NCBI GenBank assembly: GCA_000004985.1
Contig: GG738853.1
DNA length: 64,000 nt
Strand: one strand, 5' to 3'
DNA from: Naegleria gruberi
Lineage: Eukaryota
Both the position numbers and the translations under genes were made by a program. Below, piece by piece: positions 1 through 14,129 of the stretch (position 1 is the stretch's first letter; each line of letters opens with the position of its first letter). The notes beneath the pieces are model-generated. The model saw nothing but the letters and a program-made list of their open reading frames with translations, made no database searches and was not told where the DNA came from.

Positions 1-1644
1 CCTGGTCATTTAGGACGAGTGACGACCTTTTTGGTTATGTACATTTTTTACAACAACAAGATTCAACTGTAAAACGAGGTTGTTTAATGACTTCAGTCAT
101 TCTTCTAACCAAATATCCTTTCATCAAATTGTACAGATACATGGTTCAAAAAATTGCCATGAACTACTTTTCAGAAGTTGAGAAACAAAAACAAACAAAG
201 AAAAACTCATCAGAATCAGTTTTGAGTGCTTCTAACATTTTTGCACAAGTTATGAAGCAAGTGAACAATTGGGTTCTTCCTAATGTAGATTCTCAATATG
301 AATTGTCATTCTTTGAACAAAAGATTAAGTATAGATCTCCTCTATTTATTCCTTCATCTCAATCTTACCAAAATAAGATAAATCAATTGAAACCAAGAGA
401 AGGAGGTGGTGTTTCATCCGTTACTCCTCTAAAGGAGAGATTATTAGGAAGAAAGTATCCATATCAGCAGGAGGTGAATGTATATAGGAACTTTATTAGT
501 CATAGTTTGGAATCACTCGCTAAATTTTGGGAATTAGTAATAACTGGCGAACCTATACTAGTTTTGTCTCCAACACCTACACAATGTTGTGTTTCAGTTT
601 TTTCACTTGTTTCAATGATTGCTCCAATACCGTACGGAGGCGATGTAAGACCATATTTTACTGTACATAATCAAGACTTTAAATACTTCTCTCAAATGGG
701 AGGTCACCAAGGTTTCACATCAGCAATCGTTGGTGTGACCAATCCTTTCTTTGTTAAGGCCTATGAAAATGTAAGTAATATATCTCCCAATTCAAATATA
801 TAATGAAATAATTCTATAGTGGCCACATATTATCACAGTAGGAAAGCAACACAATTCCAGTCCAGTGAAAAAATCAACCTCACCGCCAAGTACTTTCCAA
901 AGTGCATTCTCAGCCAACAAAATTGTATCCTTCTTCACTAATGTTGACAATGAATCAAACGAAAGAAAACAGTTAATGTGGGACTATAAGGAAACATTCT
1001 TATCTAAGAAAAAGTCATTTATTGTAGATGATTTGGACATGTCAGGTATTAAATTATTAACTGAGGACATTAACGTTAGTGACAGAAGCTCTGCTGACAG
1101 TCTCAATAATGACCAAATTAGAAAATTCTTTGAACAATTGACCGAAGATTTCCTACACCCAATTCATCAATGTTTTGATACACTTGTTTGTTCCATGAAA
1201 ACTTTCATTGTACGATCGGAGCATGCAAAAGTTTTCAAGACTGAGAAATTTATCAACTATATCAAAAAGAATGGATATAATGAAAAGGTTTTCAAGGCCA
1301 AAAAGTCAGATGTATTTGAAATGTATAAGAGATTTGTCTACTCAACCAATTTTAAATCATTCATGGAACATAGATTAAGAGAAGCTTATGTAAATGATGT
1401 ACAACATACAGATATTGATGAATTTTTAAAGAATGAAAAATTCTCAGAAATTGACCTTATTGACCTCTTCCTACAAATCAAACAAGACTTGGAAGAAGAA
1501 ATGAAAACCTACGATGATGATGTCATTGTAACTCGTCTACAAGTTTTCCTATCTCAAATTCTTAAAAGATTACCAGATACTCTTAAATTGCATTTAGAGA
1601 GACAATTGAGTAATATGGTTGAAGACTTGAAAGATAGCTTTTAA
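1..1644 (+). CDS. DENND6 (FAM116) homologue, tripartite DENN-domain protein. The 5' end lies outside the window. Exons are <=770 and 820..1644, with a 49-nt intron at 771..819.
   Basis: The frame is open from the first base of the window. The translation '...FWELVITGEPILVLSPTPTQ...DVRPYFTVHNQDFKYF...GVTNPFFVKAYEN|WPHIITVG...' aligns with human DENND6A '...[20 protein letters not shown]...DFRPYFTIHDSEFKEY...[21 protein letters not shown]...'. The donor is GTAAGT at 771 and the acceptor is TATAG at 819. The splice restores the frame between ORF 87..803 and ORF 865..1644. Confidence 0.8.
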
Positions 1645-1780: not shown

Positions 1781-3735
1781 ATGAGTAAATCCAATGAATA
1801 TACCGAAGACGTTTCATTGGAGGCCATGAAAAACATTAATCCTGTATTATTTGATCTGATTGTGTGTAACAGTACGAGGGGGTCTAGGATTTCGGAATTG
1901 AAAAAACTTCTTAATTATGATACTAGTAGGACTTCATCAGCACCTAAATATATTGAAAAATCACCCCTTACTCATCGTACTATGGAAAGAAAGAGAAAAG
2001 CTGAAGGAAAACTACCCGAATTAAAGCTTGATGATAGTGGCACTTTCATAACGGGGATACAAAACAATGAATCAAAGAGTAAATCAAAAGACAGGAGTGT
2101 TAGTTGTAATGATCAATTGAGGGAATCTTTGATGAGGGAAATAACTCCTCCTTTCAAGGCTAGGAAAACAAGTAAAACATCAGAGGATACAAGGAGAAAA
2201 CCAACACAGGATGTTATTGAAATTGCAATGTCTAACTATACGGAACAGGAAAATATCAAACTAACTAAATTGATGAACATTTATGACAAGAAGCAAATAT
2301 CAGAAATTAGAGCAAGTCCTGCTCTTGTAAATATTTTGAGATATATCGAGGAAGCCAAGACACCTAGGGATAGGAGTTTGTTTTGGGAGGATTATGAATA
2401 CATTCAGAAAATGATTGTGGAAGAAAGGGAACCATTCTCAACCAAGAAGGAGAAGGAAAAGAAGTTGACAACAACTAAGAAAATCATTCCAAAGAAAACT
2501 GTAAATTTTAAAGAGCATACTCTAGAACCAATTAATATGTTTGAAAGAGATTTACCAAAAGCACTTCGACAGAGAATTACTGAAATTAAAAACAACCCTG
2601 CCTTTATGACAAAACTGGAAGAAATTAAAAGAAGTAAGAAGAAAAATTTACCAATTATTCAAGAGGAGGAACATAATGATGATCATGATTCGAGAGGGGA
2701 TGAAGGATTGGAGGAAGGAGCTGAAGATATTCCATTCCTGGGTCCTATTGGAAATAACGAGATTTCAAATATTATTTTACTGTTATTGAAAAAGGAAAGA
2801 ACTATTCAGTTGTTTGATACAGACACGAGGAATGATTTTTATGTGTTTTTGGATCAAAGTAGACTCCATTTTTGGCAATCCTTGGTTCTAAGGTCGAATT
2901 TTGTTCAGAATTTGCATTCCAAGTTCAAATCAAACAGAGAACTCGGTAACACGAAACAAACGGAAGCTCAAAAACCAAAAGAATTGGAAAAATTCTCTAG
3001 AAAGTATGTAATATTTCAATCTTGAATATTCTAACACTTTTTAGTCAATACGTGGCAAGAATGTTGTGGAAAATTAACAGAAAGAAAATTGCTGCAGAGA
3101 TTATTAGGAGGAGTTTTATTAGTTTCCTGGATGCCAAACTAGTGTACAAAGCAATGCAAAAACTGAGAGCAAACATGACGACTTGTAGGGATATGATTAG
3201 ATCCTATTTAGAAATTAAAAAAGCGAGATTATTACTTTTGAGATTGCAATTTCAAAAATTGGAAGGTTCTGTAAAGACAATAACCATGGCCAGTTTGATG
3301 CAATCAATCTTAAAGTCTAGGAATAGTACAAACAAGATTCACTTGGATGGTGAAATGAGAAAGGAGTACATTAAGCTTCATAAGGCAGTAAGACATGCTC
3401 ACGACCAAGGCAGACATACACCAAGTCCTGAACCATTCAGAATGTCTCCTAGCCCTGAACCGAAAACCCACGATCAACATCACAAAAATCTGCAACATCA
3501 TGAAGAGAATATCAGTGCAGTTCCACTTGAAGTTGTAAATCGAGTGCTGAAAGAAGATTACGTGATAAGAAGACAATTATTTATGAAACAGGTATTCGAT
3601 AGTACAGAAAAACAATATTTCAAATGTCTTCTCGATTCTGAAAGAATGTATCAACTTGTTGTAATTGCAAGAACAAGAGCAGCTTCAATGCTAGAGAAGA
3701 AGAGAAACTCTGTCTACCTCAGTGCTGAACAATGA
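1781..3735 (+). CDS. Hypothetical lysine/serine-rich protein made of 2 exons, 1781..3003 and 3045..3735, with a 41-nt intron at 3004..3044
   Basis: ORFs 1781..3025 and 3022..3735 differ by one frame. The donor GTATGT at 3004 and acceptor TTTTAG at 3044 join them in phase (...FSRN|QYVARMLWKIN...). I recognise no conserved domain. The protein is basic and low-complexity with an IQ-like 'IAAEIIRRSF' stretch. Confidence 0.45.
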
Positions 3736-3823: not shown

Positions 3824-6800
3824 TTAGACTGAGGTAACTTGAACAAGTGTTTGGGAAGAACTGACAGAATACTTTTCAAGAAGAGCAGTTGGATATTCAC
3901 CACCTTCGAGAACTCTATACAAGTAAGTATCATAAACTGTCTTATCCCATTGGTGACCAGTAATACCACCTGGTACTAGAATCTTTGGTTTTATCGAAGA
4001 ACTTGATGCAACACTGTTTGCACCCAATACAGCATATTGTTGGAAGTAGAATCCTTGATTGGAGTAGAATCTTGGAGAGTAGTTTTCATCGAGACCAGTG
4101 GTAGATGAAGTTGAAGTAGAAATATCTGGACGAACTGGAGCAGATTGATAAATTGTAAATTCACCACCAGCAACAGAGTATGTAGAACGAGTACAAGCAC
4201 AACTGTAACTTCCATCTTCAGAGAAGTAGTGAGAGAACTTCTTTTCATAAATGTTACCCAACTTTGGATCACCATACTTCTTAATGACACTTTGTAATGC
4301 CTTAGCAGCATAGAGATCGCAAGCAGTTTGATCAGCAGCTTGACCAGTAACACCATAGATAGTGCTCAAAGCCAAAACACAAGATTGAATATTTCTATTT
4401 TGAGTATCAGATGAAATAGTTTCACTAGTGACAGTTGTTCCATTCTTAGAGTAGACATAGTTTGGCAAGAAGGCATCTCTGACGAAAATTGGATTGTCCC
4501 AATAAGCAACACCAGTATCAGAAGCAGCAATTCTACTCAATTCATAGTACCATCTTTGAGCAATTGGAGCTTCAGATGAGCTTGAAGTGAAACTACCATC
4601 CCATGCCAACAAAAGTTTACCAATTGATGAAGAGGAAATGTCAGAGTAATAATTGACAGACTTGGTCAACAATGGCATCAAATCTTCAGAGAAATAAACG
4701 TTAACTTGATCCTTAATGAACTTCTTAAGATCAGCTTCAAGGAATGGAGTTGTTGTAGAACCATAGTATGGAGAAATCAAATCGTTCAATCTTCTAGCTC
4801 TATAACTGTGACCAAAATCATAACCAAAGTTATAACGATAACCATATCCAACTGGTTTGTTGTTTGCACTGACAAAGTAATCCTTACGAGCAATGAAAGC
4901 TCTAAAGTTAACAAGAGCAGCATTGTAACCAGTCCAGACTTGATTATTTGAGGCAGGGAACAAACCAGAGTGACCAGTTGCTCTAATTGGGAATCTACCA
5001 ACACCAAAGTAAACTGGATAAGCAGCAGTAAACATGACCAACATGTTCATTGGTGGATTGTGGAAATTGTTAACAGTCAAAGTATTGAAAGTAGCCAAAG
5101 TAGTTTGTTGCCAAGCTTGAGTAATCCAATTCATGGTCAAATCAACATCAGAGAGGGATGTCCACTTTAATGCCAATTGAGCACCGCTCTTCTTCAAAGT
5201 ATCTGGAAGAATATCAGTCATGATTGGACCATAAACAGTTGAACGAACAGTGATAGTAACAGCAGATGCACCCTTAACATTGATAGTTTCAGTTCTGGTA
5301 GTATATGGAAGAGTAGCTCCATTAGCAGCATAGTTATTTGATGAACCATCATCCTTAATAATGTACCAATCCATACAGTCAGCATACATATTTGATGTAG
5401 TGAAGGTGTTAATTGAGGAACGACCTTCAATCAAACCTGGAATACCTGGAATAGTTGGTCCCATTGAGGAATAAGTAGAGGCAGTTGTCTTGAACTTGAG
5501 TTTAGCAACATAGACAGGATTAGGAACTTGAGTTCTGAAACCTTCACCCTTTGAAGAAACATAGGCAGAAGATGAAGCAGACAATGCAGTACCAAATAAG
5601 TAACCACCAGCACCAATCCAATCACTGTTTTGTTTGAGCATTGTTGTGAGAGGATCGAAATATAAGAGCAAATCATCAACACTGGCAAATTTAGGAGCAG
5701 TATAGGAAGTACTAGTTGATTTAGGAGAAGTAACACCAATATTTGATTGAGCATTGATGTTATTCAATCTGTCTTGAGTTAAACTATCGAGTTCAGTTTG
5801 TCTATAAATATTTCTCAAAGAAACTGGAGTATCCAATTCAACAGGAGTGAAAGAAGCAAAACTAGAATTCAAAGGAGTCATTGGAACTAGATCCATAACA
5901 CGATCCATACTCAATTCTTTAACAGTTGCCAAATAGAAACGTAAAATTTCCATATTAGCATTACCACTGTTAATGAATTGCCACAACTTTAAAACAGCCA
6001 TTGAATCATAAATAGTCCAATCAGCAATATCGTATGAACCCAAAGTGGTTTCAAAGGCCTTATTTGAAGAACCATATCTTCCCTTATAATAATTAACACC
6101 AGCTGCATATCTTGAAACAAAAGTTTGAGTGTCACTAGTTAAATTAGTATAATGAGAAACACCATAATTATATAAACTCAAAGTTCTCATATACTTGTCA
6201 CAATATAAAGCTCTGTCTCCGACAATTTCACTCAATTGACCTCTAGCAATTCTTCTATAATAATCCATTTGGAATAATCTATCACGAGCATGAGCAAATC
6301 CTAAACCGAAAGCAACATCTTCAATATCTGATCCAGTAATATGTGAAAAACCTTCAGAATCTCTTTCAATGACAATTTTATCACCCTTCACAACAATATC
6401 TCTCAAAATGGAAATGGTTTCTTGCACAAGTGAAACATGTTGTTGATGATATGCTGCTGCAATTGCTGTCAAAATTAAACACATACAAGTTGCCAACAAG
6501 ACAAATGTTGCCAAAGTAACATAACCAACAATTTTTAAATATTCAAGAGTTGTTCTAGAAGCTTGAACATCGGATGGAAGTGCTGCTTGTTCAACAGCAG
6601 GACTATAAAGAGTATATCATCATTGTTATGTTATTGAATATATCATAATTGTCATGTTATTGAATATATATATATCAGATTGAATATGAATATGAAGGAG
6701 AATTCAAAGTTATCAAATGTGAGTGTGTGTATTCATCATCATATTCATCAATATAATTATTATGAGAGTTGAAATTAAAATTGTTGTTGTGGTGATGGAA

Positions 6801-7147
6801 ATTGTGTTCAAGAATAGAGAGAGAGAAAATATCAAATATATTTGATTATAATATAGAGGTGTGTGTGTTAATTTTCAAAATATATATTGTTGAAACTATT
6901 CACATTCACATTCAAAACACACTTACATTTTAAAGTATTTAATAGCAAATATTAAATAGATAACAACAGGGAATGCCAAAAAGAATGGCACTGTGACTAA
7001 AAAGACAAATAACCAATATCCAGGACAGAATCTAAAAACTGTACCAGCATCAATGACTGGATAAATCCACAACAATAAATTGATTAAAATCAAGAAAACT
7101 AGACAGATGGCATAGGGCCTGTATAGTTTGTAGTGCAACCAGGCCAT
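3824..7147 (-). CDS. Penicillin amidase / acyl-homoserine-lactone acylase family Ntn hydrolase. Exon 1 (7147..6927) encodes an N-terminal multi-TM segment and exon 2 (6602..3824) encodes the catalytic domain. The intron is 324 nt at 6603..6926.
   Basis: The 896-aa ORF carries the family hallmark '...GFSHITGSDIEDVAFGLGFAHARDRLFQMDYYRR...' (penicillin acylase PF01804-like). The frame is open upstream of the annotated start back to the acceptor CTTTATAG at 6603/6604. A GTAAGT donor follows ORF 6923..7147 (MAWLHYKL..., 3 predicted TM helices), and joining them keeps the phase (…KYFK-I-PAVEQAAL…). The intron is full of (TA)n/(GA)n/(GT)n simple repeats. Confidence 0.7.
6640..6900. repeat. Simple-sequence repeats ((TA)n, (GA)n, (GT)n) inside the long intron of the penicillin-amidase gene
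   Basis: Direct reading shows 'atatatatatat' near 6664, 'gagagagagagaaaat' near 6826 and 'ggtgtgtgtgtt' near 6858. Confidence 0.8.
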
Positions 7148-8528: not shown

Positions 8529-11198
8529 ATGAGTACGAGACTCAGAGAACTCATTCGTGAGGTTCGTAATTGTAAAACAGCAGCAGAGGAAAGATCGGTC
8601 ATTGCTAAAGAATGTGCTGCTATTAGAACAGCATTGAAGGAACAACATGCCTACAGGGCAAGAAATGCTGCCAAGTTGATGTATATTCACATGTTGGGAT
8701 ATCCGACAAATTTTGGACAAATAGAATGTGTTAATTTAATATCAAGTTCTAAATATCCAGAGAAAAGAATTGGTTACTTGTCACTGATGATTATGTTGGA
8801 CGAACATCAAGAAATTCTTACCTTGACAGAACATAGATTTAAAGTGTAGGTTTTCTTCTTGTTTATTTAAAATTTGACTGATCAAATTAGAGATTTGAAT
8901 GATAGTAATCAATTTGTTCAAGCTTTGGCTCTTACAGCCATCGGAAACATTGCATCAGCAGATATTTGTCGTGATTTGAGTGTTGAAGTTGAAAAATTAT
9001 TAATTGGTGCTCCTTCTTTTATTAGAAAGAAGGCCGCACAATGTGCTATTAGAATTGTTTCTAAATGTCCAGATTTAATTGAAAATTATATTGAAAGAAT
9101 TGATACAATTTTGGAAAATGAACAACATCAAAGAAGTCACTCTGCCATGCTTGGCATTATTACTTTGATTCTTACAATTCTCAATCCAACAAAAGTTGGT
9201 GGATCTGAAACTAGAAATTATTTACTTCACTTTAGAAAACATATTCCTGTTTTTGTTAGATTACTCAATGCATTATTAAGTAGTAATTCTACTTCTGAAT
9301 ATGATGTTAATGGAGTTGCCGATCCATTTTTGCAAACAAAGCTCTTACGTTTATTGAAAGTTTTGGGAAGAGGAAGTTCTAAAGCAAGTGAACAAATGAC
9401 AGAAGTTTTGACAAAGACACTCACTAACACTGACAAGACTAAGAATACAGGTAATGCTGTAATTTATGAATGTGTTAGAACTGTTATGGATATTGAATGC
9501 GATCCTTCATTGAGAAAGATGGCTATTGGTCAACTTGGTACATTCCTTGGTAATAAGAAGGATAACAATCTTAGATATGTTGCTTTGCACACAATGAAAA
9601 AGGTTTCCAAATTGGACTCTCAAGCAGTCAGTAGACATTTGGCTACCATTGTTGAATGTTTGAAAGATCACGATATTTCAATTAGAAAGAGAGCTCTTGA
9701 TTTGGTTTATGTCATTGTTGATAACAGTAATGTAACATATCTTGTTCAAGAGTTGATTCAACATTTGGAAGTTTCCCCACCAGAATTTAAACCAGAATTG
9801 ACCACAAAAATTTGTACAATTATTGAAGAGCATGCTCCTTCAAAGGACTGGAAGATTACAACACTTTTACAAGTTATAATTTTATCAGCCCAATATGTTA
9901 GAGATGAAATTGCTTCCATCTTTATTGGTATGCTTTCACAATCTATTGATAATCAAGCTGAAATTACCAGAAAATTGTACGATACTCTTAAGGATTTAAT
10001 TCCAAAACCAAATATTTTGCTCAAACAAGAAATTCTTATGCAAGTAAGCAGTTGGTGTTTGGGTGAATATGGTGATTTGATTGTTGATAATGAAGTTACT
10101 AGTGAGAATGTTGTAAATGTATTATTCGATTTGGTTAACATGTTACCAAAGGGTTCAGTTAGTACTGTAAAGAGTAGAAGAGTTTTGTCAACTGATCCAA
10201 ACAATATAGTAAGGGCTTATGCACTTGTTGCCTTGTTGAAATTATCTGGAAGATTCCCTGATAGATCAGCAGATATTGAACGTTTTGTTTCAAGATATTC
10301 AGACAATGTTCAACTTGATTTACAACAAAGAGCTTGTGAATTACTCCAAATCGCCAAAATGTCTGCTTCAGTTAAAGAAAATATTCTTGACAAGATGCCT
10401 GAATTCCAAATTGATTCTATTATTGGTCAATTAAACTCATCCGAAAAAGAAGAAGAGGAGCAAGGAGAGGAAGAACATAACGAACCTTCTGACCGTACAA
10501 CTTCTGCAGTCGGTAGTGGTTTAAGCAGTTTGCTCATTGACATTGAAAATAATGGAGCTGTTAAACAAACTGAATCCAGCCTGATTGACTTTATTACAAC
10601 TACCACTGAAACAAAACCTGTAAAAACAACTGAACCAACACGTAAGGTTCCAACTGTTCAACAAACAGAAACTCTCCTTCCATTTGAGTCTATTCTTCCA
10701 ACTACCAATACTACCACCAGTCCTGTTCCTTCCTTGTTAAATATGTTAGATATGCCAAGCTCCAATTCAGCAAACTCACTTTTGTTGGATGACCTTCTCT
10801 CATCTCCTTCCCTACCAGCTTCTGCATTAATGCCACAAAAAGAAAAGAAGATTTTATCAGCTTATAATAAGAATTCCCTTAATATCAGATTTGAATATGT
10901 TGAAATGGATCCAGGAAGTCTCAATGTTATTGTCTATTTCTCCAACAATAACACCAAGGAAGTTATGGGATTGGACTTTAAGGCTGCCGCACCAAAATAT
11001 TGTGAGGTAACACTTTTCAAACCAAGTTCCACATCAATTGCACCAAACACCACTGATAGTGTCACTCAAAAATTCAAAGTTAAAATTGTTAACAGTGCTG
11101 CAAGACCAATCACTGATAGTCAAATACCAATCAGGTTTAAACTCATTTGTAAGATTGGTGATAAGGTTTTGGATGAGACAGGTACTGTAAAACTCTAA
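8529..11198 (+). CDS. ap1g1: AP-1 complex gamma-adaptin large subunit. Exons are 8529..8845 and 8891..11198, with a 45-nt intron at 8846..8890.
   Basis: The N-terminus '[30 protein letters not shown]...[36 protein letters not shown]' matches human AP1G1 '[30 protein letters not shown]...'. The splice GTAGGT...AATTAG yields 'FKV|[14 protein letters not shown]', equivalent to 'IKNDLNHSTQFVQGLAL'. The C-terminus has a gamma-ear-like domain. Confidence 0.88.
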
Positions 11199-11366: not shown

Positions 11367-12528
11367 ATGGGATTCTTTGATAAGAAGGAAAAGTTTGAAG
11401 TTCATAAAATGTACGTTGTTTTATTCTTGGGAGTGTGTGCTTACTGATGACGGGTTTTGTTGTTCATAAAATGCTGATGATGAATATTATGATAATTATT
11501 AATTTGATTATTTAATTGTTGGTTTGCCAATAATTGTATGAACTTATTTTCATCCGATATATGATGATCTCTAGTAAGAGCAATTTGAAAATGGCCATAA
11601 CAAGAATTGGCTTGTTGAAAAACAAGAAATCCAATGGCATTAAAGTTCAAAAGAGACAAGTTGCTGAATTACTTCAAAATGAAAAGGATGAATCAGCAAG
11701 AATTAAAGTTGAAAATATTATTAGAGAGGATTATGCTATTGAAGCTTTAGAAATTTTGGAATTATTTTGCGATTTAGTTCATACTAGAATACAGTTACTT
11801 TCCGAGTCAAAGTAAGTGATCATGATCAATGATTTAAATGATGATTAATTTTATTGTGAAATAGTACTTGCCCACATGATATGAAGGAAGCAGTTAGTAC
11901 ATTGATTTATGCTGCACCAAGAACTGAAGTTAAGGAATTGATGGAAGTTAGAAATCAATTTGCAGCAAAATTTGGAAAGGATTTTGTTGATGCAGCAATG
12001 GATAATAAGGATTTGGCCGTAAATCAACGTGTAATGTTCAAACTTGATGTTAAAGTACCAGAGCCATATCTCTGTATTGATTATTTGAGAGAAATTGCAA
12101 AGGAAAATGGTATAGAGTGGGATGATAGTAATGTGGTTACTGATGTGGATGTTCATAACCAAAAGATGACACCAATTAATCCACAATTACAAACCTTCTC
12201 AATTCCAACATCTGAGCCAATTCAACATAATCAACCTTTCCAAACTCAACAATTCCATCAAGGACCTCCGCCAGCTTATTCACCAAATACACAATTCCAA
12301 TCACAACCTCAATATTTAATTCCTCCTCCTTCCGATCTTCGTCCAACCAATCAATCTGGTTATTCTGTAGATTTTAATCCTCAACAACCATCAATGTTCC
12401 ACGATGTACCTCCACTTTCACAAGGAACTTTTGGAGCTAGTAATGTACCTGCATTTGGTCAAGATGCGAACAGTTATGATTTTGATGAATTACAAAAGAG
12501 ATTTGAAGCTCTCAAGAAACGAGAATAA
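11367..12528 (+). CDS. ist1: IST1 (ESCRT-III-associated, MIT-interacting). Proposed exons are 11367..11410, 11575..11811 and 11865..12528.
   Basis: '...KSNLKMAITRIGLLKNKK...ESARIKVENIIREDYAIEALEILELFCDLV...' matches IST1 '...NLRLVINRLKLLEKKK...ERARIRVEHIIREDYLVEAMEILELYCDLL...'. 'MKEAVSTLIYAAPR' corresponds to 'MKELDSGLAESVSTLIWAAPR'. The C-terminal MIM 'DFDELQKRFEALKKRE' corresponds to 'DFDDLSRRFEELKKKT'. The middle region is proline-rich. Exon 1 is less certain than the rest. It depends on a GTACGT donor at 11411 and a TCTCTAG acceptor at 11574, which are phase-consistent. Confidence 0.75.
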
Positions 12529-12556: not shown

Positions 12557-14129
12557 TTATTCTTGATAGAGATGATGTAACTTTTGAGCTATCTGCTCAA
12601 TTTCTCCTTTCTTCTCAATATTCTTAATGTGGCTCTCAATGACATTATTAAATCCATATCTTCCTCCATACCATGCAGCAGCAATTGAGCCAATAGAATC
12701 AGAATCACCTGCATTCAAACATGCTTGTAAAATGAGATTCTCATAATTATTGGCACCAGAATAGAGAACTGAATCATAGGCAATAATTACTGAATCATCT
12801 CCACTAGCTCCATACCATCCATCATATGCAAATTTCTTATAATATACATCCCTTTCATCAATGCCATAACGAGATGGGAAGGAAGGTTTCAAATTATTTA
12901 CAAGTTCCTCATTCTTGAAATCCCCTTCTTCCAAGAATAAGCTTCTATCTTTCAAATAGGTTTTGAAAACATTTTCGAAATGTGTAACTGAATCTTTCAT
13001 TTCCTTCCAATCTCTTTGAGCAACTGTCTGCAAATAAACTCTAGCTCTTGGCATGTCGTTATAGAGAAAGTGCACACCCCATTGAGCTGGAGGAATCTTT
13101 CCTTCCAAAGCATAGGATGTGAAAAGAGCAGAAACCAAAGATCCCAAAAAACCAGTTGGGTGATTATGAGTCAATCTTGCAGATTCAATACTAGTAGCAA
13201 TCAGCATGTCTCTTCTTTCCTTTCCTGTCATTATACCAATTCCCATAGCTCTCATCTATATACAATTTAAGAATTTATGATTTAGTAACAAACTTACACT
13301 ACCACCATTTCCTCCTCCTCTTTTATCATATGGATAAGCAAACCAATAGTCAAATCCATTCTCTCGAATAAAATCGACACCTCTTGCACCTTTAATCGAC
13401 AATTCAATAAATAAATTATTATTCGAGTGAAAAAATTTCATCAACTAGCTCACTTACATGTAGGTCCTGGTGCCCTTCCATACATATCATTCCAACAAAT
13501 CAAATATTCCTTTGCCATTTCTTTCATCAATGGATCTACAAATTCCACAAGAAAATTGGCATTTACCTTTTCATCCTTCTCATCAAACGTAAAAATCTTT
13601 TTTTTCGAATTTTCCATAAAACTAATCATTGCTCTCATTGTTGCCAAATGCATGACAGTATCATCAGAAACTCTCCAATTTTTAGTATCAATTCCATTCA
13701 AATTTCCATAATAATGTTTCAATTCATTATGAATGGAATGTGAATTCTTAGTAAATTCCCAACTTCCATTTCTAAAACCTAATAATTCATTCGAAAATTC
13801 AAACAAATCCAAAAAAGCAATTTGACTTTAGTTAAATATCGTCATGATCACATATTACACTCACCAATAGCATCACCAGCAGCTGCCAACAATAAACTAG
13901 CAAGAATTCTCTCCTTTAATGTATAACCATTCACGTTATCCATTACTGCTTGTTTTACAGAGGAAGACGAATGAAACAATTCTTGATCCGAATTATTCAT
14001 ATTTTCATGATTCAATCCTCCAGTAAAAACAGCTCCGATCATGAGCCTTTTGGAATTTTTAATGATCAATTTATTTCTAGATTGTGATGATGATACAGAG
14101 ATGAACGTTCTAGCCAGAGATTTAAACAT
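12557..14129 (-). CDS. ADP-ribosylarginine hydrolase (ARH1/ADPRH family) in 4 exons: 14129..13865, 13778..13458, 13389..13298 and 13255..12557. It has a 75-aa N-terminal extension.
   Basis: 'AAAGDAIG|FRNGSWEF...[18 protein letters not shown]...GRAPGPTC|ARG...GGGNGGS|MRAMGIGI...[27 protein letters not shown]...' follows human ARH1 'AAGDALGYYNGKWEF...[13 protein letters not shown]...GRAPGGAS...[27 protein letters not shown]'. All junctions are GTAAGT/GTGAGT...AG and in phase. The introns are 86, 68 and 42 nt. Confidence 0.8.

What the first reader, a model, noticed from the sequence alone, without database searches (positions are those of the whole stretch)
3824..7147. Penicillin-amidase (Ntn-hydrolase) gene fused in frame to a eukaryotic multi-TM first exon, a candidate HGT-derived gene
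Penicillin/AHL acylases are overwhelmingly bacterial. Here the catalytic ORF (the 'FGLGFAHARDRLFQMD' motif) sits in a eukaryote and is preceded by a phase-compatible exon encoding three predicted TM helices. A 324-nt repeat-rich intron with GTAAGT...TTTATAG boundaries separates them. An amidase that is secreted in bacteria would thus have been domesticated as a membrane-anchored enzyme, possibly for quorum-signal (AHL) degradation or processing of bacterial prey.
Basis: partly seen in the sequence, partly recalled or inferred. Interest (0 to 1): 0.75.

Follow-up and report, generated by a model that had tools for sequence, protein, structure and literature searches.

The report
Membrane-anchored, probably inactive acylase-like protein
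This is the already annotated Naegleria gruberi "penicillin amidase family" gene: it belongs to an old, eukaryote-wide family of three-helix membrane-anchored acylases rather than being a recent bacterial import, and its own branch has lost the residues that make such enzymes work.

Summary
The two-exon gene is real. Exons 7147..6927 and 6602..3824 (minus strand) splice to a 999-aa protein identical to NCBI's "penicillin amidase family protein [Naegleria gruberi]" (PF01804, E 1.4e-93). An unidentified related genome (52% identity) keeps the same 221-nt exon 1, phase and intron position.

- Only two of the three hydrophobic helices lie in exon 1. The third is in exon 2, where bacterial homologues carry their single N-terminal anchor.
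- The gene is not a Naegleria-specific transfer. The three-helix plus acylase architecture occurs in Acrasis, Pharyngomonas, Balamuthia, the choanoflagellate Didymoeca, two further N. gruberi paralogues and unnamed eukaryotic contigs. All but one fall in one NJ clade (86% bootstrap).
- These proteins share a eukaryote-only cysteine pair (C41, C875).
- The intron is not a fusion seam. Acrasis has its intron elsewhere and other members are intronless.

The window gene sits in a fast-evolving subclade whose named members are all heteroloboseans (100% bootstrap). This subclade has lost the catalytic signature: Ser-Asn at beta1-beta2 reads Asn399-Ser400 in N. gruberi, and His beta23 is absent in 12 of 12 members. 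It is most likely a non-catalytic surface or luminal protein, less likely an acylase with a shifted nucleophile. Interest is moderate.

The parts
6927..7147 (-). Exon 1 (221 nt). It holds the ATG at 7147..7145, codons 1-73 and the first two bases of codon 74. It encodes the cytoplasmic N-tail, helix 1, a short loop containing Cys41, and helix 2.
   Evidence: The spliced product equals the annotated protein. L001 has the same exon length and phase.
6603..6926 (-). Intron of 324 nt, phase 2, GTAAGTGTGT...CTTTATAG. It contains a 26-nt tandem repeat of 2.2 copies at 6613-6669.
   Evidence: The orthologous intron in L001 is 146 nt with the same first 10 bases. The Acrasis orthologue has no intron at this position.
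3824..6602 (-). Exon 2 (2779 nt including the TAA stop at 3826..3824). It encodes the cytoplasmic loop 2, helix 3 and the whole acylase-fold domain.
7055..7120 (-). Hydrophobic helix 1 (residues ~10-31).
   Evidence: Kyte-Doolittle peak of 2.72. AlphaFold2 helix 10-31.
7025..7027 (-). Cys41 in the helix 1-helix 2 loop (motif FRFCPGYW). Cys is near-invariant at this column in eukaryotic three-helix family members.
   Evidence: Cys is present in 10 of 10 evaluable members of the divergent clade and 42 of 46 canonical three-helix proteins. It co-occurs with Cys875.
6935..7024 (-). Hydrophobic helix 2 (residues ~42-71).
6452..6532 (-). Hydrophobic helix 3 (residues ~98-124), in exon 2. It is the positional equivalent of the single N-terminal anchor or signal of bacterial homologues.
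   Evidence: Bacterial N-termini are shown.
4133..6373 (-). Penicillin amidase (PF01804, peptidase S45) domain match, residues 151-897. The fold continues to the C-terminus.
   Evidence: 315.6 bits. Foldseek matches D-succinylase, cephalosporin acylase precursor and MacQ with target-normalised TM-scores of 0.76-0.79.
5624..5629 (-). Asn399-Ser400 (AAC AGT), at the columns where the family has the nucleophile Ser beta1 and Asn beta2. The two residues are swapped.
   Evidence: MAFFT columns: Ser in 97 of 99 and Asn in 97 of 99 sequences, with only the two Naegleria species differing. L-INS-i table.
5537..5557 (-). The SSKGEGF loop, which replaces the canonical A-N-D-P-H-L-G loop (beta19-25). His beta23 is absent.
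4862..4864 (-). Asn654, the retained oxyanion-hole asparagine (equivalent to Asn beta241 of E. coli PGA).
   Evidence: Invariant in 99 of 99 sequences. Aligns with the NN of PGA 'ANWNNSP' in the PDB alignment.
4799..4801 (-). Arg675, the retained conserved arginine (equivalent to Arg beta263 of PGA).
   Evidence: Invariant in 99 of 99 sequences.
4199..4201 (-). Cys875 in the catalytic domain (motif YSCAC). Cys at this column is eukaryote-specific.
   Evidence: Cys is present in 13 of 13 divergent-clade members and 42 of 46 canonical three-helix proteins. It is present in only 2 of 120 one-helix bacterial-type proteins.

Best explanation
The locus is the annotated two-exon N. gruberi gene for a 999-aa three-pass membrane protein. 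Its large C-terminal domain has the penicillin/cephalosporin/AHL-acylase (Ntn-hydrolase, PF01804) fold.

Inferred topology: the N-terminus is in the cytoplasm, the short helix 1-helix 2 loop with Cys41 is outside, the basic helix 2-helix 3 loop is in the cytoplasm, and the acylase-fold domain is outside the cytoplasm (cell surface, or the lumen of vesicles or phagosomes). Cys41 may form a disulfide with Cys875 of the domain.

Evolution: the gene was not acquired by Naegleria and then joined to a host exon. It is one of at least three N. gruberi paralogues of an old eukaryotic family in which the three-helix anchor was already present. The intron at codon 74 is a later, lineage-specific insertion.

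Function: the gene belongs to a fast-evolving subclade whose named members are all heteroloboseans. In this subclade the catalytic set has decayed in a mosaic way (Ser beta1, Asn beta2, Asp-Pro-His beta21-23 and, in some members, the oxyanion Asn). In N. gruberi, Ser-Asn has become Asn399-Ser400 and His beta23 is gone. I therefore infer that the protein no longer works as a canonical self-processing N-terminal-nucleophile amidase. It most likely serves as a non-catalytic extracytoplasmic binding or scaffold domain (a pseudo-acylase).

Shown here: gene model, family, fold, distribution of the architecture, and residue states. Inferred: topology, the disulfide, loss of activity, and any binding role.
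For: Gene model:
- Searches give the spliced CDS, which is 100% identical to the NCBI protein.
- The exon 1 length, phase and donor are conserved in L001, while the intron itself is diverged.

Family and fold:
- PF01804 matches with E 1.4e-93.
- The AlphaFold2 model has pTM 0.83.
- Foldseek finds 7ea4 (E 3e-30), 1keh and 5c9i.

Architecture:
- Among the top 150 representatives from 1.84 billion proteins, ~800-aa proteins have one N-terminal helix and ~920-1350-aa proteins have three.
- Every named three-helix protein is eukaryotic: Acrasis, Pharyngomonas, Balamuthia, Didymoeca, N. gruberi XP_002674471.1 and XP_002671819.1, and N. lovaniensis.
- The unnamed P0148 and P0115 lie among eukaryotic genes.

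Tree:
- The divergent clade has 100% bootstrap support.
- A 75-taxon clade with 86% support holds all but one of the three-helix proteins, plus a 7-taxon bacterial branch that includes Chroococcidiopsis.

Shared derived cysteines:
- Both C41 and C875 are present in 51 of 55 evaluable three-helix proteins and neither in 3.
- C875 is present in 2 of 120 bacterial-type proteins.

Topology: K+R density is 0.16 in the N-tail, 0.07 in loop 1, 0.14 in loop 2 and 0.06 after helix 3, over 47 proteins.

Intron is not a seam: the Acrasis intron is at codon ~39, and P0115 and P0148 are intronless.

Catalytic decay:
- All 35 canonical sequences keep S-N, D-[PT]-H, N and R.
- In the divergent clade His beta23 is kept in 0 of 12, Asn beta2 in 1 of 12, Ser beta1 in 5 of 12 and the oxyanion Asn in 5 of 12.
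- Ser beta1 is present in 97 of 99 sequences in a broader sample, the exceptions being only the two Naegleria species.
- Mean distance to bacterial sequences is 2.01 for this clade against 1.51 for canonical three-helix proteins.
- The Pfam score is 316 bits against 515-533 bits for the two N. gruberi paralogues.
Against: - N. gruberi keeps the oxyanion Asn654 and Arg675, and has a Ser (S400) immediately next to the canonical nucleophile column.
- 11 of the 12 clade members have a hydroxyl residue at beta1 or beta2 in the L-INS-i alignment (the exception is P0109). A register-shifted nucleophile therefore cannot be excluded.
- The protein is well conserved among three genomes (about 45% of columns invariant). 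It is clearly functional, and that function could still be enzymatic.
- Alignment around the nucleophile is not unique. hhalign in global mode puts beta1 opposite G404, at low confidence, and the AlphaFold2 model is unreliable there (pLDDT below 50 at residues 397-402).
- Placement of the divergent clade inside the eukaryotic group rests on a distance tree with weak internal nodes (under 10-30%) and long branches.
- A profile test for sequence homology of the N-terminal anchors was inconclusive (1 of 46 above controls).
- No expression, processing, localisation or activity data were available for this gene. The disulfide could not be checked because no model coordinates are returned.
Confidence: 0.6

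Rival explanations
1. The protein is an active membrane-anchored amidase with a shifted nucleophile. The precursor cleaves itself between Asn399 and Ser400, and Ser400 becomes the N-terminal nucleophile. The enzyme hydrolyses N-acyl amides such as bacterial acyl-homoserine lactones at the cell surface or in phagosomes.
For: Asn654 and Arg675 are retained. A Ser lies one residue from the canonical column, and a hydroxyl residue is present at beta1 or beta2 in 11 of 12 clade members. The fold is intact. Conservation among Naegleria species and L001 is strong.
Against: The closest sequenced relative (L001) has S-N where Naegleria has N-S, so the nucleophile column is not held fixed even at 52-66% identity. 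His beta23 and Asp beta21 are lost, and 5-7 residues (depending on the alignment) are inserted in the beta1-beta29 hairpin. Other clade members have also lost the oxyanion Asn, or carry Lys or Ile at beta1. All 35 canonical relatives, including two N. gruberi paralogues, keep the complete set, so the decay is specific to this clade. There is no hit to the NCBIfam PvdQ model.
Confidence: 0.25
2. Recent lineage-specific horizontal transfer: a bacterial acylase gene entered the Naegleria lineage and became membrane-anchored by capturing a pre-existing host exon that encodes transmembrane helices.
For: The word-indexed search lists bacterial proteins at 24-28% identity directly after the three Naegleria-like hits. 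The family is mostly prokaryotic. An intron separates part of the anchor from the rest of the gene.
Against: The exhaustive search finds full-length relatives with the same three-helix N-terminus in Acrasis, Pharyngomonas and other eukaryotes. Canonical three-helix homologues occur in Amoebozoa and a choanoflagellate. They share the C41/C875 cysteine pair and one NJ clade at 86%. The intron position is not conserved, and many members are intronless across the anchor-domain junction. The helix adjacent to the domain is in exon 2. Base composition is not anomalous.
Confidence: 0.05
3. The eukaryotic family is not ancestral to eukaryotes. It arose from one ancient bacterial transfer, possibly from a cyanobacterium-like donor, gained the anchor once, and then spread among bacterivorous protists by eukaryote-to-eukaryote transfer. 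This concerns deep origin only and is compatible with the best explanation for this gene.
For: The distribution is patchy: Heterolobosea, Amoebozoa, a choanoflagellate, and published reports in a ctenophore (PMC6005172) and a diplonemid (bioRxiv 10.64898/2026.01.29.702485). The NJ sister branch is bacterial and includes a Chroococcidiopsis protein (72.5% and 86% bootstrap).
Against: Only a distance tree was built, only one sister sequence is named, and relationships inside the eukaryotic clade are unresolved. Vertical descent with many losses fits equally well.
Confidence: 0.4
4. The feature is an artefact: bacterial contamination, or a mis-joined gene model.
For: None beyond the bacterial flavour of the family.
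Against: The gene lies in a 64-kb window, and on a 695-kb contig, among adaptin, Ist1 and other eukaryotic genes. It carries an intron conserved in a second genome, and orthologues exist in N. fowleri and Acrasis.
Confidence: 0.01

Closest known systems
Bacterial penicillin G / cephalosporin / AHL acylases and D-succinylase (Pfam PF01804, MEROPS S45; e.g. E. coli PGA 1ai4/1pnk, cephalosporin acylase precursor 1keh, MacQ 5c9i, D-succinylase 7ea4)
   Same: The domain is the same over its whole length (E 1.4e-93) and the predicted fold is the same (target-normalised TM-score 0.76-0.79). The alpha-region motif DRLFQMD, the oxyanion Asn and the conserved Arg are kept. The domain lies outside the cytoplasm and follows a hydrophobic N-terminal segment, as in the closest bacterial homologues.
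   Different: There is no Ser at beta1 and no Asn at beta2 (the residues are Asn399-Ser400). There is no Asp-Pro-His loop, and the first hairpin carries an insertion. Two extra transmembrane helices lie upstream. The protein has the eukaryote-only Cys41/Cys875 pair. Identity to bacterial members is only 24-28%, and the Pfam score is about half theirs.
Canonical eukaryotic three-helix acylase homologues (N. gruberi XP_002674471.1 and XP_002671819.1, N. lovaniensis XP_044544430.1, Balamuthia mandrillaris KAL6042778.1, Didymoeca costata EP00039_P001838)
   Same: They share the three N-terminal hydrophobic helices in a 2+1 arrangement, the Cys pair, and the same NJ clade.
   Different: They retain the S-N-x-W and N-D-P-H motifs and all other catalytic residues. 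They evolve more slowly and score 515-672 bits on PF01804 against 316 bits. They are the likelier active acylases.
Direct orthologues and clade-mates: N. fowleri 1000-aa protein (66% identity), L001 metagenome gene (52%), Acrasis kona 'quiP' KAL0476890.1, Pharyngomonas kirbyi EP00761_P013585, Heterolobosea sp. BB2 EP01027_P009767
   Same: The architecture is the same, the N-terminal motif (LYRP...FRxCxGYW) is conserved, and the Asp-Pro-His loop is lost in all.
   Different: The state of the nucleophile column varies: S-N in L001, T-S in Acrasis and S-S in Pharyngomonas. The intron position differs in Acrasis. The Acrasis annotation 'quiP' implies an AHL acylase, which the residues do not support.
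Published eukaryotic 'penicillin amidase' reports: N. fowleri 'Penicillin amidase homolog (fragment)' Q25548, Willaertia magna K01434, Mnemiopsis ML02771a, Rhynchopus
   Same: The Pfam family is the same. Q25548 was detected by mass spectrometry in N. fowleri extracellular vesicles and in a 100-kDa immunoreactive band (PMC9312180, PMC7350353). The Willaertia gene is transcribed at a low level (PMC7285305). The ctenophore and diplonemid genes are called HGT (PMC6005172; bioRxiv 10.64898/2026.01.29.702485).
   Different: None of these papers, in the passages read, discusses the membrane anchor or the catalytic residues. Which paralogue Q25548 or the Willaertia gene corresponds to was not determined here.

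Membership tests
Penicillin amidase family (Pfam PF01804 / peptidase S45) | Significant full-length match to the family profile | tested here: met
   PF01804 matches with E 1.4e-93 and 315.6 bits (cut-off 21.3), covering residues 151-897. PDB sequence hits are to PGA, glutaryl-7-ACA acylase and D-succinylase.
Penicillin amidase family (Pfam PF01804 / peptidase S45) | Ntn-hydrolase acylase fold | tested here: met
   The AlphaFold2 model has pTM 0.83. Foldseek against the PDB finds 7ea4 (E 3e-30, target-normalised TM-score 0.76), 1keh (0.77) and 5c9i. This is a predicted structure only.
Catalytically competent Ntn acylase (PGA / PvdQ / cephalosporin acylase type) | Ser (or Thr/Cys) at beta1 that becomes the N-terminal nucleophile, within the [GA]-S-N-x-W motif | tested here: not met
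   The beta1 column holds Ser in 97 of 99 sequences and Asn399 in N. gruberi. The beta2 column holds Asn in 97 of 99 and Ser400 here. L-INS-i gives the same result. hhalign offers an alternative register that places Gly404 at beta1. No alignment gives a Ser at beta1.
Catalytically competent Ntn acylase (PGA / PvdQ / cephalosporin acylase type) | His (or Gln in PGA) at beta23 within the N-[DG]-P-[HQ] loop | tested here: not met
   The loop reads S-S-K-G-E-G-F. His is present in 95 of 99 relatives, in 35 of 35 canonical sequences and in 0 of 12 members of this clade.
Catalytically competent Ntn acylase (PGA / PvdQ / cephalosporin acylase type) | Oxyanion-hole Asn (PGA beta241) and conserved Arg (PGA beta263) | tested here: met
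   Asn654 and Arg675 are invariant in 99 of 99 sequences. However, the Asn is retained in only 5 of 12 clade members.
Catalytically competent Ntn acylase (PGA / PvdQ / cephalosporin acylase type) | Autoproteolytic maturation into alpha and beta chains, and amide-hydrolase activity | not testable with these tools
   This needs protein biochemistry. The only hint is Q25548 in a 100-kDa band (PMC7350353). The paralogue is unknown and the band also holds proteins of many other sizes.
AHL acylase PvdQ/QuiP equivalog | Match to the curated NCBIfam equivalog model above its cut-off | tested here: not met
   The window protein has no NCBIfam hit. The paralogues hit NF051460 (PvdQ) at only 37-51 bits against a cut-off of 950.
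   Hydropathy segments lie at 16-29, 49-68 and 102-118 (window centres). AlphaFold2 helices lie at 10-31, 42-71 and 90-129.
   C41 and C875 are both present. Both occur in 51 of 55 evaluable three-helix proteins, and C875 occurs in 2 of 120 bacterial-type proteins.
   It falls inside a clade with 86% NJ bootstrap support that holds all but one of the three-helix proteins. That clade also includes a 7-taxon bacterial branch. The nodes nearer the divergent clade have under 10-30% support, and long-branch effects are possible.
Recently horizontally acquired bacterial gene | Nearest relatives bacterial, restricted to one host lineage, with atypical composition | tested here: not met
   The nearest relatives are eukaryotes from at least four heterolobosean genera. 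G+C is 0.37-0.38 across the gene, inside the window's range of 0.29-0.41. An intron is present.

The most novel reading that the evidence does not exclude
Eukaryotes possess an undescribed, widely but patchily distributed family of three-pass membrane-anchored acylases. It is marked by a conserved extracytoplasmic disulfide (Cys41-Cys875) that clamps the anchor loop to the catalytic domain. In Heterolobosea one duplicate lost catalysis and became a surface receptor or binding protein for bacterial N-acyl molecules such as acyl-homoserine lactones or lipopeptides. A bacterivorous amoeba would then sense prey signals with a dead quorum-quenching enzyme and degrade them with the live paralogues.
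Probability: 0.1. Interest if true: 0.7.

Novelty: new variant of a known kind. Interest (0 to 1): 0.4.

Why it matters
The gene itself is already annotated, and 'penicillin amidase' has been noted in Naegleria, Willaertia and other protists. It is usually read at face value, as penicillin metabolism or as HGT. Three points from this analysis change how it should be read.

1. The membrane anchor is a family-wide eukaryotic feature with its own conserved cysteine pair. It is not a Naegleria exon capture, so lineage-by-lineage HGT calls for this family (ctenophore, diplonemid, amoebae) should be re-examined together.
2. Annotations such as 'penicillin amidase' or 'quiP' for this subclade probably mislabel a non-catalytic or mechanistically unusual protein.
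3. N. gruberi offers a natural pair for experiments on how an Ntn-hydrolase is repurposed: two canonical paralogues and one decayed paralogue. This is relevant to amoeba-bacteria interactions and to N. fowleri, where a homologue has been reported in extracellular vesicles and among immunogenic antigens.

Tried and rejected
- Word-indexed homology search alone. It showed bacteria directly after the three Naegleria-like hits and would have suggested a Naegleria-specific HGT. The exhaustive profile search overturned this.
- Raw pairwise distances from the window protein. Only 5 of the 30 nearest non-clade sequences are three-helix proteins. The distances are saturated (1.6-1.9) and favour slowly evolving bacterial sequences, so this was not used as evidence.
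- Fast MAFFT alignment of 194 sequences. It misaligned the nucleophile region. It was replaced by L-INS-i on 47 sequences and by an HMM-anchored alignment for the tree.
- hhalign between the divergent and canonical profiles. It gave a different, low-confidence register at the nucleophile. I prefer the MAFFT register because most clade members (Acrasis, P0107, P0109 and P0111-P0114) keep the canonical spacing from beta1 to the invariant Pro at beta29. L001 also has an exact S-N-D-W.
- Profile test for sequence homology of the N-terminal anchors between the divergent and canonical groups, against shuffled and reversed controls. The result was inconclusive (1 of 46). The Cys41 column later gave better evidence.
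- A weak Pfam hit to Phage_T4_gp36 at residues 441-537 (24.7 bits, below the cut-off of 26). I treated it as spurious.
- N. fowleri and N. gruberi paralogue DNA could not be fetched. Intron conservation there and dN/dS were therefore not tested, and the L001 comparison is too diverged for dS.
- One literature search on 'quiP' returned only unrelated papers.
- The AlphaFold2 output carries no coordinates, so neither the Cys41-Cys875 distance nor the active-site geometry could be checked.

Full report
**1. The observation**

Read on the minus strand, the window has an ATG at 7147. A 221-nt open stretch ends in AT|GTAAGT at 6927/6926. An acceptor...CTTTATAG|T, follows at 6603/6602, and an open frame then runs to a TAA at 3826..3824.

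Joining 7147..6927 to 6602..3824 gives exactly 3000 nt and a 999-aa product. Upstream of the acceptor, the exon 2 frame is closed by stop codons. The only in-frame Met before the catalytic domain lies inside a hydrophobic helix, so exon 1 is needed for a sensible start.

The product is 100% identical over 100% of its length to the protein that NCBI, UniRef and EukProt hold as 'penicillin amidase family protein [Naegleria gruberi]', on a 695-kb contig.

Other checks on the observation:
- Pfam PF01804 matches residues 151-897 with E 1.4e-93.
- The quoted motif is at residues 172-187.
- The neighbouring ORFs encode adaptin, Ist1 and an ADP-ribosylglycohydrolase, so this is ordinary eukaryotic chromosome.
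- G+C across the gene (0.37-0.38) is unremarkable for the window.
- The intron carries a 26-nt tandem repeat of 2.2 copies.

**2. Comparative support for the splice junction**

An ENA metagenome contig, L001 (4187 bp, 40% G+C), encodes a protein 52% identical. A prokaryote-style gene caller had truncated it at an internal Met.

Upstream on that contig I found an exon of exactly 221 nt (426..646) that ends in phase 2. It is followed by an intron starting with the same GTAAGTGTGT but only 146 nt long. An acceptor then restores the frame. The encoded N-terminal 135 residues align without gaps and are about 70% identical to N. gruberi. The introns differ in length and barely align, with 122 matches over a 324-column global alignment.

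The N. fowleri orthologue (66% identical, 1000 aa) reads KYFKIPAVEQAALP across the junction, as N. gruberi does. No transcript data were available, but the junction is well supported.

**3. Correction on the helices**

Hydropathy analysis and the AlphaFold2 model both give three hydrophobic helices, at residues about 10-31, 42-71 and 98-124. Exon 1 ends at codon 74, so it carries two helices. The third is in exon 2, directly upstream of the catalytic domain.

The closest bacterial homologues each have one hydrophobic N-terminal segment in exactly that position. A membrane-proximal acylase is therefore not a eukaryotic invention. What eukaryotes added is the first ~95 residues.

**4. Relatives**

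The word-indexed search showed N. fowleri, L001 and then bacteria at 24-28% identity. Taken alone, that looks like HGT. I then ran the exhaustive profile search of 1.84 billion representatives.

That search gave 12,852 hits. Directly after the query come proteins of 919-999 aa that align from about residue 5. In other words, they share the N-terminal anchor.

Named members:
- Acrasis kona 'quiP' (KAL0476890.1)
- Pharyngomonas kirbyi
- Heterolobosea sp. BB2
- Balamuthia mandrillaris (KAL6042778.1)
- the choanoflagellate Didymoeca costata
- two further N. gruberi proteins (XP_002674471.1 and XP_002671819.1)
- one N. lovaniensis protein

Across the top 150 representatives there is a clean split. 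Proteins of ~800 aa have one N-terminal helix. Proteins of ~920-1350 aa have three, arranged as two close together plus one next to the domain. Every named three-helix protein is eukaryotic. Two unnamed ones that I located sit among eukaryotic genes:
- P0148, next to IF-2B, CNOT11, Rrp44, SPC22 and DOCK
- P0115, next to Ist1, Dpy-30, PPR and PIG-X

Published work also reports the family in a ctenophore and a diplonemid, as HGT (PMC6005172; bioRxiv 10.64898/2026.01.29.702485), and in Willaertia (PMC6892926, PMC7285305).

**5. Phylogeny and shared derived characters**

I built a neighbour-joining tree of the catalytic domain only: 194 sequences, 694 HMM-anchored columns, Kimura distances and 200 bootstraps. 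The results:

| Clade | Bootstrap |
|---|---|
| Window protein + N. fowleri + L001 | 100% |
| 13-taxon divergent clade (adds Acrasis, Pharyngomonas, BB2 and unnamed contigs) | 100% |
| 75-taxon clade: all but one of the 57 three-helix or divergent proteins, ten N-truncated or one-helix relatives, and a 7-taxon bacterial branch including a Chroococcidiopsis protein | 86% |

Nodes between the divergent clade and the 75-taxon clade are weak (under 10-30%), and the divergent clade is a long branch. The tree alone is therefore only suggestive.

Independent support comes from two alignment columns that separate eukaryotic from bacterial members:
- **Cys41**, in the helix 1-helix 2 loop, is Cys in 10 of 10 evaluable divergent proteins and 42 of 46 canonical three-helix proteins.
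- **Cys875**, in the domain, is Cys in 13 of 13 and 42 of 46 respectively. It is Cys in only 2 of 120 bacterial-type proteins, and both of those cluster with eukaryotes in the tree.
- The two cysteines co-occur. Both are present in 51 proteins and neither in 3. Mismatches are almost all truncated sequences.

This argues that the anchor is homologous across the family and was gained once. A direct profile test of anchor homology was inconclusive.

**6. The intron is not a fusion seam**

The Acrasis orthologue (L004) has a single 43-nt intron at codon ~39, between helices 1 and 2, and none at codon 74. The P0115 and P0148 genes are uninterrupted from the first helix to the stop codon. Several ~3-kb contigs also gave full-length three-helix proteins to a prokaryotic gene caller.

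The simplest reading is that a complete anchor-plus-domain gene already existed, and that the Naegleria/L001 lineage later gained an intron at codon 74.

**7. Catalytic residues**

I aligned 12 divergent, 19 canonical three-helix and 16 bacterial sequences with L-INS-i. All 35 canonical sequences have:
- [GA]-S-N-x-W at beta0-4
- D-[PT]-H at beta21-23
- the oxyanion Asn
- two Arg residues

The divergent clade differs as follows:

| Feature | State in the divergent clade (12 members) |
|---|---|
| His beta23 | retained in 0 of 12 |
| Asn beta2 | retained in 1 of 12 |
| Residue at beta1 | Ser 5, Thr 1, Asn 4, Lys 1, Ile 1 |
| Oxyanion Asn | retained in 5 of 12 |

N. gruberi and N. fowleri read N-S-D-W, while L001 reads S-N-D-W. 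In a separate 99-sequence alignment the beta1 column is Ser in 97 sequences, and the only exceptions are the two Naegleria species.

N. gruberi keeps Asn654 and Arg675. It replaces A-N-D-P-H-L-G with S-S-K-G-E-G-F and carries an insertion of 5-7 residues, depending on the alignment, in the first hairpin.

On the alignment register:
- Most clade members (Acrasis, P0107, P0109 and P0111-P0114) keep the canonical spacing from beta1 to the invariant Pro at beta29. This anchors the register used above.
- hhalign proposes another register at low confidence, with Gly404 at beta1.
- AlphaFold2 is unreliable at residues 397-402.
- Under either register there is no Ser at beta1.

The clade also evolves faster. 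Its mean distance to bacterial sequences is 2.01, against 1.51 for canonical three-helix proteins. It scores 298-370 bits on PF01804, against 515-758 bits for the other sequences tested. There is no NCBIfam match.

Mosaic, lineage-by-lineage loss of residues that are invariant everywhere else is the usual signature of a clade released from catalytic constraint. The whole protein nevertheless stays conserved: about 45% of columns are invariant among three genomes.

**8. Mechanism proposed**

*Shown:* the fold is intact (pTM 0.83; Foldseek matches D-succinylase, cephalosporin acylase precursor and MacQ at target-normalised TM-scores of 0.76-0.79). There are three N-terminal helices.

*Inferred, topology:* K+R density over 47 family members is 0.16 in the N-tail, 0.07 in loop 1, 0.14 in loop 2 and 0.06 after helix 3. 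This fits a cytoplasmic N-terminus, an external loop 1, a cytoplasmic loop 2 and an extracytoplasmic domain, which matches the periplasmic location of bacterial acylases. It puts Cys41 and Cys875 on the same side of the membrane, so a disulfide between them is plausible.

*Inferred, function:*
- The protein most likely does not self-process or hydrolyse amides in the canonical way. It would act instead as a binding or scaffold ectodomain (about 0.6).
- The main rival is an active enzyme that uses Ser400 after cleavage at N399|S400 (about 0.25).
- The two canonical N. gruberi paralogues are better candidates for AHL or N-acyl amide hydrolysis.

Reports that an N. fowleri 'penicillin amidase homolog' (Q25548) is present in extracellular vesicles and in a 100-kDa immunoreactive band (PMC9312180, PMC7350353) fit a membrane-associated protein. 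I could not establish which paralogue that is.

**9. Comparison with what is known, and novelty**

The protein is a member of PF01804 by sequence and predicted fold. It fails two defining features of a catalytically competent Ntn acylase (Ser beta1 and His/Gln beta23) and is not a PvdQ/QuiP equivalog.

The gene and its family assignment are already in public databases. Protist 'penicillin amidases' have been mentioned in several papers, generally as antibiotic-related enzymes or as HGT. In the literature I could search, I found no description of the conserved three-helix anchor, the cysteine pair, or the decayed active site of the heterolobosean clade.

I therefore rate it a new variant of a known kind, of moderate interest.

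Noticed in passing
window 11881-12528 (+) and L003 1786-3058 (-): An Ist1 (ESCRT-III-related) gene lies about 5 kb from the acylase-family gene in the N. gruberi window. The same is true on the unnamed eukaryotic contig that carries the canonical three-helix homologue P0115. The Ist1 proteins are 41% identical (tblastn E 1.5e-46). This could be conserved micro-synteny or coincidence.
   Followed up: partly
window 1781-3025 (+) and 3022-3735 (+): Two long ORFs of 414 and 237 aa abut with a 4-nt overlap, and the second starts only at a TTG. Neither has a Pfam hit. They may be one gene interrupted by a frame change or a short intron. They converge on the 3' end of the acylase gene.
   Followed up: no
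L004 3001-6043 (Acrasis kona JAOPGA020000108.1): The Acrasis orthologue, annotated 'quiP', has a very short 43-nt intron (GTATGT...TTAG) at codon ~39. This differs from the Naegleria intron position. Its nucleophile motif reads T-S-T-F, and the oxyanion Asn is replaced by Gly.
   Followed up: yes
N. gruberi proteins XP_002674471.1 (P0136) and XP_002671819.1 (P0156), outside the window: N. gruberi has at least two further three-helix acylase paralogues annotated only as 'predicted protein'. Both keep the full catalytic signature (SNNW/SNAW and NDPHL/NDPHM) and score 515-533 bits on PF01804.
   Followed up: partly
L002 (ENA ERZ28548055 contig_30770, 295 kb): The contig carrying the canonical three-helix homologue P0148 is very AT-rich (23% G+C) and is packed with short eukaryotic genes. 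The organism was not identified.
   Followed up: no
window 4622-4912 (residues 441-537 of the protein): There is a sub-threshold Pfam hit to Phage_T4_gp36 (tail fibre; 24.7 bits against a cut-off of 26) in the beta-rich part of the acylase domain. It is most likely a chance or compositional match.
   Followed up: no
window 8874-11198 (+), 12557-13255 (-): The neighbouring ORFs encode an adaptin large subunit (Adaptin_N, E 1e-86) and an ADP-ribosylglycohydrolase fragment. Both ORFs match only part of their Pfam profiles, which suggests further exons that the ORF list does not join.
   Followed up: no
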